This document shows, one piece after another, positions 24,684 through 49,265 of a DNA stretch of 64,000 nt. The notes under the pieces are model-generated. The model was not told the DNA's origin, ran no database searches, and was given only the letters and a program-made list of their open reading frames with translations. Position 1 is the first letter of the stretch. The number at the start of each line of letters is the position of its first letter. Position numbers and translations under genes: made by a program. This DNA is from a virus (taxonomy: Duplodnaviria > Heunggongvirae > Uroviricota > Caudoviricetes), in the IMG/VR virus record IMGVR_UViG_2565956719_000002; one strand, written 5' to 3'.

Positions 24684-24700
24684 ATTGCTCTAATGAATTT
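24684..24700 (+). promoter_or_regulatory. C1-operator-like 17-mer upstream of antirepressor module A
   Basis: ATTGCTCTAATGAATTT, 16/17 to consensus; about 320 bp upstream of the coupled leader ORF. Confidence 0.5.
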
Positions 24701-24860
24701 GATTTTTTGGGGCGGAAATACTACCATTGTACGCCAGACTATTGATCTTCCTGTTGTTCAGGCTTATAGTTCCTACGTCGTAGCAAATTCTGCGACCGGG
24801 TTTGACAGCCTGAATGTACATGCGGACAACCGCAGATATCCGCATATTGCGGTATTTTTG
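24701..24860 (+). ncRNA. Candidate c4-like antisense RNA region of module A
   Basis: Elements 24724-24745 and 24925-24958 are roughly complementary to repeats at 24805-24838 and 24969-25009, the latter overlapping the leader-ORF ribosome-binding site; hairpin CCGCA-TAT-TGCGG plus T-run near 24839-24858. Confidence 0.3.
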
Positions 24861-25018
24861 TGTCCGTAAAACCACGTTACGCCCGAATTATGGTGGGGCG
24901 TGATGGGGAGGCTTCGGCCTGCTGGTTTCATGTACGCCAGTCTGTCAACCCCGTCACGTCCTGCCACCTGTTTGACAGCGGGTAGCAGGTTGTTAAACCT
25001 GTACATGAGGCCGTAACT

Positions 25019-25240
25019 ATGGTTAATGCCAATCCTTGCGCACGCCCTGAATTCATCTGGCGCTTTTACTCCTGCCAGAAACGTCACTATCACTTCGTTA
25101 TCGCACCAACAGAAGATGAGGCACGTTCTCAGCTTCCGGATGCTCCCTGTATTTTCTCTGCCCGCTTTTCTACCGATTTGCGCAATTCTCTCAGTTACTG
25201 GTGCCTCCCTGTTAACGCTTCTGCTCAGGAGGGGCTATGA
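25019..25240 (+). CDS. Leader protein coupled to antirepressor A (icd-like position)
   Basis: 73 codons, GAGG upstream, stop overlaps ant start (ATGA); inverted copy at 31086-31312 differs by 14 synonymous codon changes and one amino acid. Confidence 0.55.
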   Translation: MVNANPCARPEFIWRFYSCQKRHYHFVIAPTEDEARSQLPDAPCIFSARFSTDLRNSLSYWCLPVNASAQEGL

Positions 25241-26295
25241 GAACGTCATTAGTCACCCGTGAAGAGATGATCGAGGCAATTGAACAGCACACTGCCTGTA
25301 TCAGTACCAGGGATATACCTGGCGTTATTGCCAACTACTTCATGATCACCAAACAACTTTACCGGAGAAAGGACAAAAACGCGGTTCACCGCATTCTGCT
25401 GTCTGATATCCGTGAATACCTGCTCGAACAGGGGCATCTGAATTACGCAACCGTCGCAGCCGAAACACGCAAGGAGGCACACAGAATGAAAGCAAGCAAA
25501 CCAGATGTTGTCGTTACAAAGCCTTTGACAGCAACCACACCAGCAACGGCCATGGATGCTATCCCCAACACCGGAGACACAATCGACAGCCAGACGCTGT
25601 TAAAGATGGTCAATGAAGCGCGGAAATTATGTAGCGAAAAACCAGTTCGCAATAATGATTTTATTGCCAGAGTTAAGGATGAACTGGATGGTGAGTACTA
25701 CGAAATTTTCGTAGTGCAAAAATTAAACAACACAACATCTGAAACTATCTCCATGACCTACAAACAAGCCCTGCGAGTTGCCGCGCGCGAGTCAAAAGCG
25801 GTCCGCCGTTCGCTGATCGACAAACTGGAGGAATTGCAGCAGGCTAGCACTGCTTCTCCAGTGATTCCCCAAACACTCCCCGAAGCTCTGCGCCTGGCTG
25901 CCGAGCTGGCTGAACAAAAGCAACTTCTGGAACAGAAAGCCCACCAGCTAAATCAGCAGCTGGTGGCCGCCGCTCCTAAAGTCGATTTTGCCGACCGGGT
26001 ATCAGTAGCTAAAGGGATCCTGATTGGGAATTTTGCAAAGGTTGTTGGACTTAAGCAAAACGCGCTGTTTGCCTGGTTACGGGAGAACGGCATCCTGATA
26101 GCGTCCGGTGGACGTAAAAATGTGCCGTTCCAGCAATACATCAACGCTGGGTATTTTTCTGTGAAAGAAGTGGTGCTGGATGATGAAGATGGCTATCAGA
26201 TACGACTGACGCCCCAGTTAACGGGGAAAGGCCAGCAGTGGTTGACGCGTAAACTGCTCGATGCTGGCTTGTTAAAACCGGTGGCGGCTGAATGA
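25237..26295 (+). CDS. Antirepressor-like protein A (KilA-C-type C-terminus)
   Basis: 352 aa; C-terminal NFAKVVGLKQNALFAWLRENGIL...PFQQYINAGYF typical of phage antirepressor C-domains; N- and C-termini near-identical to copy B, middle unrelated. Confidence 0.7.
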   Translation: MRTSLVTREEMIEAIEQHTACISTRDIPGVIANYFMITKQLYRRKDKNAVHRILLSDIREYLLEQGHLNYATVAAETRKEAHRMKASKPDVVVTKPLTATTPATAMDAIPNTGDTIDSQTLLKMVNEARKLCSEKPVRNNDFIARVKDELDGEYYEIFVVQKLNNTTSETISMTYKQALRVAARESKAVRRSLIDKLEELQQASTASPVIPQTLPEALRLAAELAEQKQLLEQKAHQLNQQLVAAAPKVDFADRVSVAKGILIGNFAKVVGLKQNALFAWLRENGILIASGGRKNVPFQQYINAGYFSVKEVVLDDEDGYQIRLTPQLTGKGQQWLTRKLLDAGLLKPVAAE

Positions 26296-28431: not shown

Positions 28432-28448
28432 AGAATTATTAGAGCAAT
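28432..28448 (-). promoter_or_regulatory. C1-operator-like 17-mer facing cre
   Basis: Minus strand ATTGCTCTAATAATTCT, 15/17. Confidence 0.5.
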
Positions 28449-28505: not shown

Positions 28506-28535
28506 TGTTTGACAATTGCTCTAATAAATTATAGT
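28506..28535 (+). promoter_or_regulatory. Sigma70-type promoter with operator in the spacer, facing the coi-like and c1 genes
   Basis: TTGACA - 18 nt containing ATTGCTCTAATAAATTA (28514-28530) - TATAGT. Confidence 0.55.
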
Positions 28536-29089: not shown

Positions 29090-29941
29090 ATGATAAATTA
29101 TGTCTACGGCGAACAACTGTACCAGGAGTTCGTCAGCTTCAGGGATCTCTTTCTAAAAAAAGCTGTTGCACGCGCCCAACACGTTGATACAGCCAGCGAC
29201 GGTCGTCCTGTACGCCCGGTTGTCGTTCTACCGTTCAAAGAAACTGACAGCATTCAGGCTGAAATTGATAAATGGACTTTAATGGCGCGGGAACTGGAAC
29301 AGTACCCAGACCTCAATATCCCAAAGACTATTTTATATCCAGTGCCTAACATCCTTCGCGGTGTGCGTAAGGTTACAACTTATCAGACAGAAGCTGTGAA
29401 CAGCGTCAACATGACCGCTGGCCGCATTATTCATCTGATTGATAAGGACATTCGCATCCAAAAAAGCGCGGGGATCAATGAGCACAGTGCGAAATACATA
29501 GAGAACCTGGAAGCAACAAAAGAGCTAATGAAGCAGTACCCGGAGGATGAAAAATTCCGTATGCGTGTACACGGCTTTAGCGAAACAATGTTGCGCGTCC
29601 ATTACATTTCCAGTAGCCCTAACTACAATGATGGTAAATCAGTTAGTTACCATGTGCCGCTGTGTGGTGTGTTTATCTGCGATGAAACTCTCCGTGATGG
29701 AATCATCATCAACGGTGAATTCGAGAAAGCAAAATTTAGCCTTTATGACTCCATAGAACCGATCATCTGCGACCGCTGGCCGCAAGCAAAAATATATCGC
29801 CTGGCAGATATTGAAAATGTAAAAAAACAAATTGCCATCACTCGCGAAGAGAAAAAGGTTAAGTCAGCCGCATCAGTTACGCGCAGCCGTAAAACCAAGA
29901 AGGGGCAGCCAGTAAACGACAACCCCGAAAGCGCGCAATAA
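29090..29941 (+). CDS. c1: C1 repressor of lysis
   Basis: 283 aa beginning MINYVYGEQLYQEF; size, start and context match P1 C1 as recalled; GGAGG upstream. Confidence 0.75.
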   Translation: MINYVYGEQLYQEFVSFRDLFLKKAVARAQHVDTASDGRPVRPVVVLPFKETDSIQAEIDKWTLMARELEQYPDLNIPKTILYPVPNILRGVRKVTTYQTEAVNSVNMTAGRIIHLIDKDIRIQKSAGINEHSAKYIENLEATKELMKQYPEDEKFRMRVHGFSETMLRVHYISSSPNYNDGKSVSYHVPLCGVFICDETLRDGIIINGEFEKAKFSLYDSIEPIICDRWPQAKIYRLADIENVKKQIAITREEKKVKSAASVTRSRKTKKGQPVNDNPESAQ

Positions 29942-29973: not shown

Positions 29974-31089
29974 TTATTCAGCCGCCACCGGTTTTAACAA
30001 GCCAGCATCGAGCAGTTTACGCGTCAACCACTGCTGGCCTTTACCCGTTAATTGAGGCGTCAACCGTATCTGGTAGCCATCTTCATCATCCAGCACCACT
30101 TCTTTCACCGTGAAATACCCCGCGTTGATGTACTGCTGGAACGGCACATTTTTACGTCCACCGGACGCTATCAGGATGCCGTTCTCCCGTAACCAGGCAA
30201 ACAGCGCATTTTGTTTAAGTCCAACGACCTTTGCAAAATTCCCAATCAGGATCCCTTTAGCTACTGATACCCGGTCGGCAAAATCGACTTTAGGAGCGGC
30301 GGCCACCAGCTGCTGATTTAGCTGGTGGGCTTTCTGTTCCAGAAGCTGCTTTTGTTCAGCCAGTTCGGCAGCCAGGCGCAGAGCTTCTGGAAGCGTCTGG
30401 GGGATTGCAACCGGTTGCTGTTCTTTTTGCCGGAAGTAGCTGTCTTCCAGTTTTTCAAAGAATGCCCATGCCTGATCGGTTTCGAGCATTTTAGCGTGGC
30501 GGGCTGCGCCGCGTTCCGTCCAGAGGATGAGTGAGCGGGCTTTAGGAGAGATAGGATTTTGTGAGTTACTTAAAGTCACCCGCAAATTGTTCAAATCATC
30601 TCCAATAACTTTATAGAAATGCTTACCTTCACAAAAACGTTCAGCATTACGGGAAAAGTTCTTCTTGATGTTATCCGCATCTGTCCCATACCCCTTAGCA
30701 AGGATCTTAGTTGTCACTACACGCACTCCCTGCCACTCTAGAACGGGAATTTCATCCGGCTGACTTTGAACAACCACCAGTTCTGATTCCTGAACTAAAG
30801 GTGTATTAATTTTTTCAGATTTAACGTTAGTAGCTTTCATTCTGTGTGCCTCCTTGCGTGTTTCGGCTGCGACGGTTGCGTAATTCAGATGCCCCTGTTC
30901 GAGCAGGTATTCACGGATATCAGACAGCAGGATACGGTGAACAGCGTTCTTGTCCTTTCTCCGGTAAAGTTGTTTGGTGATCATGAAGTAGTTGGCAATA
31001 ACGCCTGGTATATCCCTGGTACTGATACAGGCAGTGTGCTGTTCAATTGCCTCGATCATCTCTTCACGGGTAACTAACGATGTTCTCAT
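29974..31089 (-). CDS. Antirepressor-like protein B (Bro-N-type central domain plus KilA-C-type C-terminus)
   Basis: 371 aa; central VLEWQGVRVVTTKILAKGYGTDADNIKKNFSRNAERFCEGKHFYKV Bro-N-like; first 86 and last about 143 residues near-identical to copy A. Confidence 0.75.
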   Translation of the reverse strand: MRTSLVTREEMIEAIEQHTACISTRDIPGVIANYFMITKQLYRRKDKNAVHRILLSDIREYLLEQGHLNYATVAAETRKEAHRMKATNVKSEKINTPLVQESELVVVQSQPDEIPVLEWQGVRVVTTKILAKGYGTDADNIKKNFSRNAERFCEGKHFYKVIGDDLNNLRVTLSNSQNPISPKARSLILWTERGAARHAKMLETDQAWAFFEKLEDSYFRQKEQQPVAIPQTLPEALRLAAELAEQKQLLEQKAHQLNQQLVAAAPKVDFADRVSVAKGILIGNFAKVVGLKQNALFAWLRENGILIASGGRKNVPFQQYINAGYFTVKEVVLDDEDGYQIRLTPQLTGKGQQWLTRKLLDAGLLKPVAAE

Positions 31090-31312
31090 AGTCCCTCCTG
31101 AGCAGAAGCGTTAACAGGGAGGCACCAGTAACTGAGAGAATTGCGTGAATCAGTGGAAAAACGGGCAGAGAAAATACATGGGGCGTCAGGAAGCTGAGAG
31201 CGGGCCTCATCTTCTGTCGGTGCAATAACGAAGTGATAGTGACGTTTTTGGCAGGAGTAAAAGCGCCAGATAAATACAGGATGAGTTGGGGTAGGGATAG
31301 TAGCCATATTGG
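31086..31312 (-). CDS. Leader protein coupled to antirepressor B (icd-like position)
   Basis: ATG with GGAGG upstream; 62 C-terminal codons conserved with copy A; stop overlaps ant start. Confidence 0.5.
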
Positions 31313-31472
31313 CAGCCTCCTTAGACGTTGGTATGTAACCACCGCAGAAGAGACCAATCTTGCTGGCGGTGGACTGTACGGAGTTGGCCTTACTGGCGTC
31401 CAAGGTAACCAGCCTACCCGAAGGTAGCCCCATACAGCCCACCATTGTAGAGGTGTGCGTGTACGCCGATAC

Positions 31473-31495
31473 AAAAAAAAGACGCGAGCGGCGTC
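31473..31495 (-). terminator. Hairpin plus T8 on minus strand (pacB terminator and/or 3-prime end of a c4-like RNA)
   Basis: GACGCCGCTCGCGTC followed by TTTTTTTT on minus strand. Confidence 0.6.
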
Positions 31496-31626
31496 TGTAT
31501 CGCCTTAGACTTAAGCGGGAGGCCAATCCCGGCACCCGTTTTAATGAGGTGCCTGATAAGCATAAACCGAAAATGCCTCAAGGCGCAAGAGGTCAGGTTC
31601 AATGTAACATCGGCAGTCAAAAAACA
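31496..31626 (-). ncRNA. Candidate c4-like antisense RNA region of module B
   Basis: Contains ATTGGCCTCCC, complementary with a 2-nt bulge to the GGAGGCTGCCAAT ribosome-binding region of the leader ORF; lies between operator-like box and hairpin. Confidence 0.3.
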
Positions 31627-31643
31627 CAATTTATTAGAGCAAG
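31627..31643 (-). promoter_or_regulatory. C1-operator-like 17-mer upstream of antirepressor module B
   Basis: Minus strand CTTGCTCTAATAAATTG, 15/17; about 315 bp upstream of leader ORF B. Confidence 0.45.
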
Positions 31644-45714: not shown

Positions 45715-45731
45715 AGATTTATTAGAGCAAT
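45715..45731 (-). promoter_or_regulatory. C1-operator-like 17-mer
   Basis: Minus strand ATTGCTCTAATAAATCT, 16/17. Confidence 0.5.
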
Positions 45732-47874: not shown

Positions 47875-48576
47875 TTATTCTGATTCTCGCTCAAAAAATG
47901 AGCTGATAAGGGGAAGCCAATCCTCTGACACTTCGCGAGGTCGCGGTTTGCCGTGGAAAAAGATTATTCGGCAGTCTTTTGGTAATGCCCCATTCCCCCT
48001 GGAGTAACGCGCGCTCGCATATTTTGAACCAGGTTCCACAACATCGGCCTTGTAACTTACAAACCATCCTGGATACAGATCCTGAAATGCTGGTGTATCA
48101 TCGCCCATAACCTTTCGTAAGAACCCCTGGTCACCCCAGCACTCAGTAGTGACACAACGAGAAATCCAACCTTCCGGATCTTGCCAGAATGAACTCCAGA
48201 TATGCGCTTTAACACTATTTGGTATCCACAGGGCACCGCTGCCACGATATTGTGGATGGTAAAAATCCCTAAGCATGGTGAAGCTGGTTGGTGGATGCTC
48301 TAGGATTGGGCGTATATCACCGGCAATAACCGTGTCCAAATCCAGATAGAACAGATCATCGGTTATATCCGGTCGGAACAACTCGATTTTCGCCCACCAG
48401 CCACGGCACTTTTGCCACTGGTTGATCAATGGGACAACTTTGACGCCAGGTACATGTAAACGCTTCAGGTCTGTCAGGCAAATAATTTCATAGCCTTTTG
48501 GCAGTTGATTAACCAGCCACTGCACATCGGAAGCGTTATAGTCACCACCAGAGCGAAAAACTAAAGCAATCTTCAT
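47875..48576 (-). CDS. Putative glycosyltransferase (GT-A-like, DxD motif)
   Basis: 233 aa; [13 protein letters not shown]-terminus and [11 protein letters not shown] acidic motif. Confidence 0.4.
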
Positions 48577-49265
48577 GCTGCACCATCACCTTTCACTTTC
48601 ATCAATGTCAGGTTTCCGCAAAATACGGCACCAGTGTCGATATACTGCTGATTCCAGAATGTCTTCGGGCTTTTCACCGGAGTGTGGCCAAAGATAAAAC
48701 GATCTGCGCCCGAAATTTCGCCACCAATATCATCCATCGAATCACTGATACGCTCGCGCGCCCAGACAACGTTGAAAAGCGGTACCTCCTTACCGAATTG
48801 GTATTCATTATCCGGATAGTCGGCATGGGCTATAACGATAGTTTCTTGCCCGGTGTTCAACTCAATGATATAGGGCAGACGCTTTACCAGCTCCACCAGC
48901 GCCCAGGCTAATATTTCCTGATCAGTGTCCAGCATGAAGAACCATTGTCCGCCATTCATTAGCCAGTTATTCACGTTGCCATCTGGACTTAACGCATCAA
49001 TCATCAGCCGCTCATGGTTCCCCATCACTGCCCTGAACCAGGGCATCTGCAATAGTTCCAGACATTCGACATTTTCAGTACCGCGATCGATAAGGTCGCC
49101 GACCGATATCAGTAAATCCTGCGCCGGGTCAAAATCCACACGATGGAGTTCGGACATCAGTCTGGTGTAGCAACCATGCAGATCACCAACAACCCAGACA
49201 TTCCTGTATTTGGTACCGTCGATACGGTGATAAATTGAGGGTGCCATCATGTATTCTTCAGCCAT
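48573..49265 (-). CDS. Ser/Thr protein phosphatase (lambda PPase family)
   Basis: 230 aa; VVGDLHG, GDLIDRG, GNHE metallophosphatase motifs. Confidence 0.8.

What the first reader, a model, noticed from the sequence alone, without database searches (positions are those of the whole stretch)
25019..25240. Leader ORF upstream of both antirepressor genes is under purifying selection
The 62 shared codons of the two leader ORF copies (25052-25240 and 31279-31086) differ at about 16 nucleotides, yet 14 changes are synonymous third-position changes and only one alters an amino acid (Leu/Ser). The first 11 codons are unrelated but equal in length, each with its own Shine-Dalgarno. This pattern is expected only for a translated protein, so the small ORF is a real gene coupled to the antirepressor. 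The synonymous divergence also shows the duplication is old, or that the modules came from different relatives.
Basis: seen in the sequence. Interest (0 to 1): 0.6.

Follow-up and report, generated by a model that had tools for sequence, protein, structure and literature searches.

The report
Phage P1 icd gene, two copies

Summary
Both ORFs (25019-25240 +, 31307-31086 -) are 73 codons. Over codons 12-73 they differ at 16 nt, 15 of them at third positions: 14 synonymous codons and one Leu/Ser. That gives dS 0.49, dN 0.007 and omega 0.014, and 0 of 100,000 random placements did as well.

The ORF is icd of the P1 immI operon. It matches NCBIfam phage_ICD_like at 49.8 bits, and P1 icd is annotated under the blastn match. 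Each copy sits in a complete module: C1 operator-like site, a1/b1 sites, C4 antisense RNA gene, a2/b2 sites with b2 on the icd Shine-Dalgarno, icd, then ant overlapping it by ATGA.

The two C4 RNAs and their targets are mutually non-complementary. Selection is partitioned: pN/pS is 0.95 for codons 2-11, 0.036 for 12-51 and 0.22 for 52-73. Residues 12-51 are the published FtsZ-binding core.

The divergent first 11 codons belong to the C4/leader block. Copy A switches from P1-like to copy-B-like at codon 11/12.

The same paired arrangement occurs in at least 43 plasmid records, both copies are annotated as Icd-like in the relatives inspected, and the nearest plasmid has a third copy. Verdict: already known, low interest.

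The parts
24684..24700 (+). C1 repressor operator-like site upstream of module 1, in the position of P1 Op51
   Evidence: ATTGCTCTAATGAATTT, 1 mismatch to the consensus I used from memory (ATTGCTCTAATAAATTT). The window has 15 such sites against 0.31 expected. P1 Op51 sits at the same relative position.
24742..24770 (+). Sigma-70 promoter-like site, positional homologue of P1 P1c4/P51b
   Evidence: TTGATC-17-TATAGT. It aligns with the annotated P1 promoter.
24764..24816 (+). c4-a1b1 element. It holds the a1 target (TTGACAG, 24802-24808); the b1 target (GTACATG, 24816-24822) begins at the element's 3' edge and lies mostly just beyond it.
   Evidence: Rfam RF03163, 54.5 bits (gathering 46.7); exact complements of the C4-A a' and b' loops.
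24886..24971 (+). C4 antisense RNA gene, module 1, on the P1-type scaffold. a' CTGTCAA at 24942-24948; b' TCATGTAC at 24928-24935.
   Evidence: RF01695, 70.7 bits (gathering 45). for the loop sequences.
24972..25010 (+). icd leader holding C4 targets a2 (TTGACAG, 24972-24978) and b2 (GTACATGA, 25001-25008); b2 overlaps the icd SD GAGG (25007-25010)
   Evidence: The homologous sites are annotated in P1. b'/b2 and a'/a2 covary perfectly across 14 specificity classes.
25019..25240 (+). icd copy A, 73 codons plus stop. Codons 1-11 travel with the C4/leader block, 12-51 are the FtsZ-binding core, and 52-73 are a tail containing the ant SD.
   Evidence: (NF033153, 49.8 bits). The core definition is from PMC11897509.
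25048..25054 (+). Recombination breakpoint at icd codon 11/12. Module 1 is P1-like upstream of it and module-2-like downstream.
   Evidence: informative sites switch from P-type to 2-type here. Sliding identity of mod1 to P1 is 0.9-1.0 before and 0.57-0.87 after; mod1 to mod2 is 0.3-0.6 before and 0.8-1.0 after.
25237..26295 (+). ant copy A (352 aa, KilAC/ANT domain). Its start overlaps the icd stop (ATGA). An internal Ant2-type start with SD lies at codon 84 (25486).
   Evidence: PF03374, 108.8 bits. P1 ant1/ant2 have the same layout.
31627..31643 (-). C1 operator-like site upstream of module 2
   Evidence: CTTGCTCTAATAAATTG, 2 mismatches.
31475..31552 (-). isrK-like RNA element with a terminator hairpin. 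It carries a1 (TTGGCCT, 31526-31520) and b1 (GTCTAAGG, 31510-31503), the targets of C4-B.
   Evidence: RF01394, 60.8 bits (gathering 50); terminator-like site at 31496-31480. for complementarity.
31362..31449 (-). C4 antisense RNA gene, module 2, on a different scaffold. b' CCTTGGACG at 31405-31397; a' AGGCCAA at 31390-31384.
   Evidence: RF01695, 75.9 bits..
31316..31357 (-). icd-B leader with a2 (TTGGTCT, 31357-31351, one G-U) and b2 (CGTCTAAGG, 31327-31319, one G-U); b2 overlaps the SD AAGGAGG (31322-31316)
31086..31307 (-). icd copy B, 73 codons plus stop, with the type-2 N-terminus MATIPTPTHPV
   Evidence: (NF033153, 49.8 bits).
29974..31089 (-). ant copy B (371 aa, ORF6N plus KilAC/ANT). 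Its start overlaps the icd-B stop (ATGA).
   Evidence: PF03374, 109.5 bits; PF10543, 68 bits.

Best explanation
Both ORFs are icd, the second gene of a phage-P1-type immI operon (C1 operator, promoter, a1/b1, c4, a2/b2, icd, ant). The window is a P1-like IncY-type phage-plasmid carrying two such modules, inverted relative to each other and flanking cre-coi-c1. Its nearest relative carries a third at the canonical site. The mechanism, from P1 work: the operon transcript yields C4 RNA. Two loops of C4 (a', b') pair with a2 and b2 in the leader, and b2 covers the icd Shine-Dalgarno. This blocks icd translation. Because ant translation is coupled to icd (ATGA overlap) and untranslated icd RNA is prone to Rho-dependent termination, antirepressor is not made in the lysogen. 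When C4 control is escaped, icd is translated, Icd residues 12-51 bind FtsZ and stop division, and Ant inactivates C1. Shown here: family membership, operon anatomy, the cognate and mutually orthogonal C4/target pairs, and purifying selection confined to the Icd core. Inferred from P1 and Gifsy-1 experiments: translational coupling, Rho polarity and FtsZ binding for these particular copies. The divergent first 11 codons are not protein-constrained (pN/pS about 0.95). They are inherited with the C4/target block, whose recombination boundary lies at codon 11/12, exactly where the functional core begins.
For: Identity: NF033153 phage_ICD_like at 49.8 bits (cutoff 25) over residues 12-51 in both copies. 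Blastn matches at 86-96% to records where the ORF is annotated icd/Icd, including P1 and P7. Both copies are annotated as Icd-like in RefSeq relatives. Anatomy: Rfam C4 hits at 70.7 and 75.9 bits upstream of each copy, plus c4-a1b1 or isrK. C1 operator-like sites. ATGA overlap with KilAC-domain ant genes. Same layout as annotated P1. C4/target pairing: cognate complementarity with b2 on the SD and no cross-complementarity. Perfect compensatory covariation of b'/b2 and a'/a2 across 14 classes in 87 loci. Selection: omega 0.014 for the pair. Pooled pN/pS of 0.95, 0.036 and 0.22 for codons 2-11, 12-51 and 52-73. 88 of 91 copies are exactly 73 codons. Function: P1 Icd binds FtsZ and its minimal core is aa 12-51 (PMC11897509). 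icd is described as apparently required for ant expression (PMC8201110). Coupling through an AUGA-overlapping upstream ORF was shown experimentally in the related isrK-orf45-anrP locus (PMC4825925). Mosaicism: breakpoint at 25048-25054, and N-terminal type co-segregates with C4 scaffold in 32/32 and 55/55 loci.
Against: Nothing contradicts it. Limits: no expression, coupling or FtsZ data exist for these two copies. No sigma-70 consensus site passed the scan threshold for module 2, where only a weak positional homologue of P51b is visible. Both C4-B target pairings include a G-U pair. The window copies share the P1 Icd core at only 34 of 40 residues (6 replacements, dN 0.066), so equal potency against FtsZ is assumed, not shown. 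The primary papers on coupling and Rho polarity (Riedel 1993; Biere 1992) were not in the held library and are cited from memory.
Confidence: 0.93

Rival explanations
1. The ORF is only a sequence-independent coupling uORF. Ribosome transit opens or delivers ribosomes to the ant start, and the peptide itself has no function, as proposed for orf45 upstream of anrP in Gifsy-1.
For: ATGA overlap with ant in both copies. In Gifsy-1, orf45 is coupled to anrP and its amino-acid sequence is not conserved (PMC4825925). Codons 2-11 here evolve neutrally, with pN/pS 0.95.
Against: Codons 12-51 have pN/pS 0.036, and 12 synonymous against 0 nonsynonymous changes between the two copies. A sequence-independent uORF would not be constrained that way. 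The core matches a curated protein family. The P1 protein has a demonstrated target, FtsZ (PMC11897509).
Confidence: 0.03
2. The conservation is at the RNA level (leader structure, Rho-utilisation site or antisense target) and the open frame is incidental.
For: The region is embedded in an RNA-regulated leader. A 53-nt stretch at the icd 3' end (25181-25233), which includes the ant SD, shows no differences at all between the copies.
Against: 15 of 16 differences fall on third codon positions of one frame (P=7.7e-7). The other five frames have stops or mostly nonsynonymous changes. RNA-level constraint does not produce 3-nt periodicity. The C4 targets lie upstream of the ATG, not in the core.
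Confidence: 0.02
3. The similarity reflects a recent duplication or gene conversion within this plasmid, so too little time has passed for selection to be read from the pattern.
For: The two copies share a core that is much closer between them (dS 0.49-0.72) than to P1 icd (dS above 1.6). The ant ends are even closer, at dS 0.18-0.20.
Against: A dS of 0.49 with dN of 0.007 is substantial divergence filtered by selection, not recency. The same two module types occur at the same two sites in many plasmids. The flanks (C4 scaffold, ant middle domain) are different sequences.
Confidence: 0.02

Closest known systems
[quoted passage not shown]
   Same: 73 codons. P1-type N-terminus in copy A. NCBIfam Icd-like domain over residues 12-51. 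C4 RNA gene and a2/b2 targets upstream, with b2 on the SD. Stop overlaps the ant start (ATGA). Ant2-type internal start at ant codon 84. C1 operator-like site upstream.
   Different: The modules sit next to cre (the res-mod region, RD-1) and between pacB and c1, not between sim and kilA/repL. The core differs from P1 Icd at 6 of 40 residues and the tail at about half its residues. The b'/b2 specificity of module 1 differs from P1 (TCATGTAC against TCACTAAC). Module 2 uses a different C4 scaffold, an isrK-like a1/b1 element and an ORF6N-containing Ant.
Extra icd-ant modules described in P1-like plasmids (pSvP1 RD-1; the pacB-c1 insertion in pTZ20_1P and RCS47)
   Same: Same two insertion sites and the same gene content (PMC6906374). 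RCS47, JL22 and 673R5 have a module-2-like block beside pacB.
   Different: Those reports list the genes without analysing C4 specificity, selection on icd or the codon 11/12 breakpoint.
isrK-orf45-anrP locus of Salmonella prophage Gifsy-1
   Same: An isrK-family RNA upstream, a short ORF whose stop overlaps the antirepressor start (AUGA), and experimentally shown translational coupling (PMC4825925). Module 2 has an isrK hit at 60.8 bits.
   Different: The orf45 peptide is not conserved, whereas the Icd core is strongly conserved. I did not test whether Gifsy-1 orf45 overlaps a C4-like RNA.

Membership tests
Icd-like host cell division inhibitor (NCBIfam NF033153; P1 icd) | Profile match above the curated cutoff | tested here: met
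   both copies score 49.8 bits against a cutoff of 25, residues 12-51 matching profile positions 1-47 of 48.
Icd-like host cell division inhibitor (NCBIfam NF033153; P1 icd) | Small ORF (73 codons in P1) immediately upstream of an antirepressor gene and overlapping it | tested here: met
   both copies are 73 codons with an ATGA overlap onto KilAC-domain ant genes, as in P1 (icd 48470-48691, ant1 from 48688).
Icd-like host cell division inhibitor (NCBIfam NF033153; P1 icd) | Protein-level purifying selection on the functional core (aa 12-51) | tested here: met
   12 synonymous and 0 nonsynonymous changes between the copies; pooled pN/pS 0.036 over 51 alleles.
Icd-like host cell division inhibitor (NCBIfam NF033153; P1 icd) | Binds FtsZ and blocks Z-ring formation and cell division | not testable with these tools
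   Shown for P1 Icd only (PMC11897509). The window copies differ from the P1 core at 6 of 40 residues.
P1-type immI operon (c4-icd-ant under C4 antisense control) | C4 antisense RNA gene upstream in the same orientation | tested here: met
   RF01695 at 70.7 and 75.9 bits (gathering 45).
P1-type immI operon (c4-icd-ant under C4 antisense control) | C4 loops a'/b' complementary to a2/b2 in the leader, with b2 covering the icd ribosome-binding site | tested here: met
   Covariation across 14 specificity classes.
P1-type immI operon (c4-icd-ant under C4 antisense control) | C1-controlled operator and promoter upstream | tested here: inconclusive
   Operator-like sites with 1 and 2 mismatches. A promoter-like site was found for module 1. 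None passed the threshold for module 2. C1 binding was not tested.
P1-type immI operon (c4-icd-ant under C4 antisense control) | ant expression depends on icd translation (coupling and Rho-dependent polarity) | not testable with these tools
   Only the ATGA overlap is visible. The dependence itself is from P1 literature and the P1 annotation (PMC8201110).
Sequence-independent coupling uORF (Gifsy-1 orf45 type) | Nucleotide sequence conserved but peptide sequence free to vary | tested here: not met
   the core pN/pS is 0.036. Only codons 2-11 behave this way (0.95).

The most novel reading that the evidence does not exclude
The block from c4 through a2/b2, the SD and icd codons 1-11 is an exchangeable immunity-specificity cassette. 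Its recombination boundary sits exactly at the first residue of the FtsZ-binding core. P1-like phage-plasmids stack two or three mutually orthogonal C4/icd/ant modules, and co-resident modules differed in a' or b' in every co-resident set where both could be typed. Stacking would let one prophage silence the antirepressors of several heteroimmune relatives at once, while each module keeps its own Icd and a differently built Ant. The evidence supports the cassette structure and sequence-level orthogonality. The immunity-stacking function is untested.
Probability: 0.4. Interest if true: 0.45.

Novelty: already known. Interest (0 to 1): 0.15.

Why it matters
For the finding itself, little. icd was cloned and characterised in 1993, its FtsZ target was published in 2025, and annotation pipelines already label both copies as Icd-like in the relatives inspected. 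The check does show that a sequence-only reader can correctly call a small gene from codon-position statistics. It also adds modest detail. Selection on Icd maps exactly onto the experimentally defined 12-51 core. The first 11 codons are neutral passengers of the C4 specificity block. Some P1-like plasmids carry up to three sequence-orthogonal immI modules. That last point could matter for understanding superinfection immunity and compatibility among the P1-like phage-plasmids that spread resistance genes in Enterobacteriaceae.

Tried and rejected
1. RNA.duplexfold of whole C4 against whole leaders gave large, uninformative energies for cognate and non-cognate pairs alike, because intramolecular structure is ignored. 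I used exact loop/target complementarity and natural covariation instead.
2. 7-nt complements to C4 stems lie inside the first 11 codons (CACGCCC in A, CCTACCC in B). I considered them as a possible third target site and rejected this: about 0.5 such matches are expected by chance, and they pair with stem rather than loop sequence.
3. An antisense overlapping gene as the cause of the periodicity was rejected, because all three antisense frames have stops.
4. The mechanical 149-aa ORF 31086-31535 (GTG start) and the 78-aa +1-frame ORF 25026-25262 were rejected. The first runs through the C4 RNA gene. In the second, all 16 differences are nonsynonymous.
5. Pfam has no family for Icd, so NCBIfam was used.
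6. The primary papers (Riedel 1993, PMC204598; Lobocka 2004, PMC523184) were not in the held library.
7. Three literature calls failed on terms shorter than 3 characters.
8. I did not run structure prediction or the large protein-database searches, because family membership was already settled.

Full report
**1. Observation**

The two ORFs are at 25019-25240 (+) and 31307-31086 (-). Each is 222 nt: 73 codons plus a stop.
- Codons 12-73 differ at 16 nt: 15 at the third position and 1 at the second.
- Fourteen codons change synonymously. One, codon 54, changes Leu (TTG) to Ser (TCA).
- Codons 2-11 differ at 16 of 30 nt.

Nei-Gojobori estimates for codons 12-73 are dS 0.49, dN 0.007 and omega 0.014.
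- The binomial probability of at least 15 of 16 changes at third positions is 7.7e-7.
- In 100,000 random placements of 16 substitutions (13 transitions, 3 transversions), the fewest amino-acid changes was 3.
- In the other two sense frames the same changes are all or nearly all nonsynonymous, or the frame has stops. All three antisense frames carry stops.

Two small corrections apply. The shared part of copy B begins at 31274, not 31279. The first 11 codons retain 14 of 30 matching bases (P=0.008), so they are extremely diverged rather than demonstrably unrelated.

**2. What it is**

The window is a P1-like phage-plasmid. It carries a 2255-aa DarB-like ORF, a Cre-like integrase at 27936-26905, coi, c1 at 29090-29941, and pacB and pacA. 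These gene names are my reading of the translations and of relatives' annotation.

Both small ORFs match NCBIfam NF033153, "host cell division inhibitor Icd-like protein". Each scores 49.8 bits against a cutoff of 25, over residues 12-51. Megablast of copy A and its upstream region hits P1, P7, D6, RCS47, SJ46 and others at 86-96% identity, and the ORF there is annotated icd.

Rfam finds a C4 antisense RNA gene upstream of each copy:
- Module 1: 24886-24971, 70.7 bits, preceded by a c4-a1b1 element at 24764-24816.
- Module 2: 31449-31362, 75.9 bits, preceded by an isrK-family element at 31552-31475.

Downstream of each copy, and overlapping its stop by ATGA, is an antirepressor gene with a KilAC/ANT domain. 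The module 2 protein also has an ORF6N domain. C1 operator-like sites lie upstream of both modules.

This is the annotated P1 immI layout: Op51, P51a/b, a1, b1, c4, a2, b2, icd, ant1/ant2. It includes the internal Ant2 start at ant codon 84, which is 25486 here.

**3. The divergent 5' block**

In P1 the annotated C4 targets a2 and b2 lie between c4 and icd, and b2 abuts the icd SD.
- **Module 1.** C4 keeps the P1 a' (CTGTCAA, target TTGACAG) but has a different b' (TCATGTAC). The matching b2 (GTACATGA, 25001-25008) overlaps GAGG.
- **Module 2.** C4 is on another scaffold. Its b' (CCTTGGACG) pairs with CGUCUAAGG (31327-31319), which overlaps AAGGAGG. Its a' (AGGCCAA) pairs with UUGGUCU (31357-31351). 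Its a1 and b1 copies lie inside the isrK hit.

The cross-combinations are not complementary.

Across 87 icd copies from IMG/VR contigs, genomes and phages, I found 14 distinct (scaffold, a', b') classes. Every a'/a2 and b'/b2 pair was perfectly compensated.

The N-terminal type of Icd (MVNANPC... or MATIPTP...) co-segregates with the C4 scaffold type in 32 of 32 and 55 of 55 loci.

A three-way alignment with P1 shows that module 1 is 90-100% identical to P1 up to about 25047. From 25048-25054, which is codon 11/12, it switches to being module-2-like. P1-type N-termini occur with two different cores. The first 11 codons therefore belong to a recombining C4/leader block.

**4. Where selection acts**

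Pooled pairwise pN/pS over 51 distinct icd alleles:

| Region | pN/pS |
|---|---|
| Codons 2-11 | 0.95 |
| Codons 12-51 | 0.036 |
| Codons 52-73 | 0.22 |

Eighty-eight of 91 copies are exactly 73 codons.

The constrained segment coincides with the minimal active region of P1 Icd. Zhao et al. 2025 showed that Icd binds FtsZ, that residues 12-51 suffice, and that removing 11 N-terminal or 21 C-terminal residues is tolerated (PMC11897509). The tail contains the ant SD (AGGAGG within the codons for Q-E-G). This may explain its intermediate constraint.

**5. Mechanism**

The mechanism comes from P1 work. I recall it from Citron and Schuster 1990, Biere et al. 1992 and Riedel et al. 1993, which the library did not hold. 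It is reflected in the P1 annotation and in PMC8201110.
- C4 RNA, processed from the operon transcript, pairs with a2 and b2 and blocks icd translation.
- ant is translationally coupled to icd, and untranslated icd RNA is subject to Rho-dependent termination. Antirepressor is therefore off in the lysogen.
- Coupling through an AUGA-overlapping upstream ORF was shown experimentally in the related isrK-orf45-anrP locus (PMC4825925).

For the two window copies, the anatomy and selection are shown here. Coupling, polarity and FtsZ binding are inferred.

**6. Origin of the two copies**

Divergence between the two modules by segment:

| Segment | Changes | dS |
|---|---|---|
| icd core (codons 12-73) | 15 syn, 1 nonsyn | 0.49 |
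| icd codons 12-51 only | 12 syn, 0 nonsyn | 0.72 |
| Shared ant N-terminus (86 identical residues) | 9 syn, 0 nonsyn | 0.18 |
| Shared ant C-terminus (140 codons) | 18 syn, 1 nonsyn | 0.20 |

The ant middle domains are unrelated between the two copies; in module 1 that domain is P1-like. Against P1 icd, both cores are saturated at synonymous sites, with dS above 1.6.

**7. How common it is, and novelty**
- The full paired arrangement (icd-ant, cre, c1, ant-icd) covers at least 80% of the query in 43 PLSDB plasmids and 32 complete E. coli genomes.
- The listed plasmid records and the RefSeq record I inspected annotate both copies as Icd-like.
- 688 plasmids hold 1129 icd-like places.
- The nearest plasmid is E. 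fergusonii pRHB32-C05_4, at 98.3% identity. It has a third icd-ant module at the canonical site beside kilA/repL. That site lies outside the span I estimate this window covers.
- Venturini et al. 2019 already noted icd-ant homologues in the res-mod region, and an ant insertion between pacB and c1, in P1-like plasmids (PMC6906374).

The finding is therefore a correct rediscovery of a known gene. The extra details (neutral N-terminus, breakpoint at the core boundary, sequence-orthogonal stacked modules) are modest refinements.

Noticed in passing
window 31475-31552 (-): The Rfam isrK hit (60.8 bits) upstream of C4-B contains exact a1 (TTGGCCT, 31526-31520) and b1 (GTCTAAGG, 31510-31503) complements of the C4-B loops. 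In this module the isrK-family element therefore plays the part that the c4-a1b1 element plays in module 1. It also ends in a terminator-like hairpin plus T-run between a1/b1 and c4.
   Followed up: partly
L090:7808-8038 (NZ_CP122494.1), equivalent to about window 31330-31560: RefSeq annotates a partial 'ash family protein' pseudogene over the stretch that Rfam assigns to the C4 and isrK RNA genes of module 2. This is probably a spurious protein call on RNA genes.
   Followed up: partly
L089:11914-15014 (NZ_CP057246.1, closest plasmid): There is a third icd-ant module at the canonical immI site next to kilA/repL. It has P1-like Icd (dS 0.025 against P1) and a third C4 specificity (a' CTGCTAA, b' TCACTAAC). 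This site lies outside the span I estimate the window covers, so the source element may carry three modules.
   Followed up: partly
window 25048-26295 and 29974-31278: The two modules form long inverted repeats: about 440 nt of icd core plus ant 5' end at roughly 95% identity, and about 420 nt of ant 3' end at roughly 95-96%. They flank the cre-lox-coi-c1 segment. Homologous recombination between them could invert the immC/cre segment. I did not check whether both orientations occur in relatives.
   Followed up: no
L003-L088, window: In all 17 co-resident sets examined (same contig or same genome), the modules that could be typed differ in at least one C4 recognition loop; in two sets one copy could not be typed. 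By my rough estimate, about 15% of random pairs would share a specificity. This is suggestive of selection for orthogonality but is confounded by site-specific module types.
   Followed up: partly
window 25181-25233: This 53-nt stretch at the icd 3' end has no differences at all between the copies, although synonymous sites upstream differ at about 36%. By my estimate this is not significant against the lower ant-flank rate. It includes the ant SD and could reflect a conversion tract or RNA-level constraint at the coupling junction.
   Followed up: partly
window 25486 and 30840 region: Similarity between the two ant genes ends just after the conserved internal Ant2-type start (SD AAGGAGG plus ATG at ant codon 84). 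The shared 86 residues therefore correspond to the Ant1-specific extension, and the Ant2 parts start with unrelated domains (ORF6N only in copy B).
   Followed up: partly
window, 15 sites (e.g. 28432-28448, 28515-28531, 45715-45731, 61716-61732): There are 15 matches (3 or fewer mismatches) to the P1 C1 operator consensus, against 0.31 expected. This is the C1 regulon of the element.
   Followed up: no
window 59020-59092, 60899-60971, 60977-61049 (-): Three tRNA genes detected by Rfam, as expected for a P1-like genome.
   Followed up: no
L009 and L017 (IMGVR_UViG_651053023_000001, about 2 kb apart, inverted): One viral contig has two P1-scaffold icd modules back to back in inverted orientation, differing only in the b' loop (CATGTAC against CGTAAGT). 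This is a different arrangement from the window.
   Followed up: no
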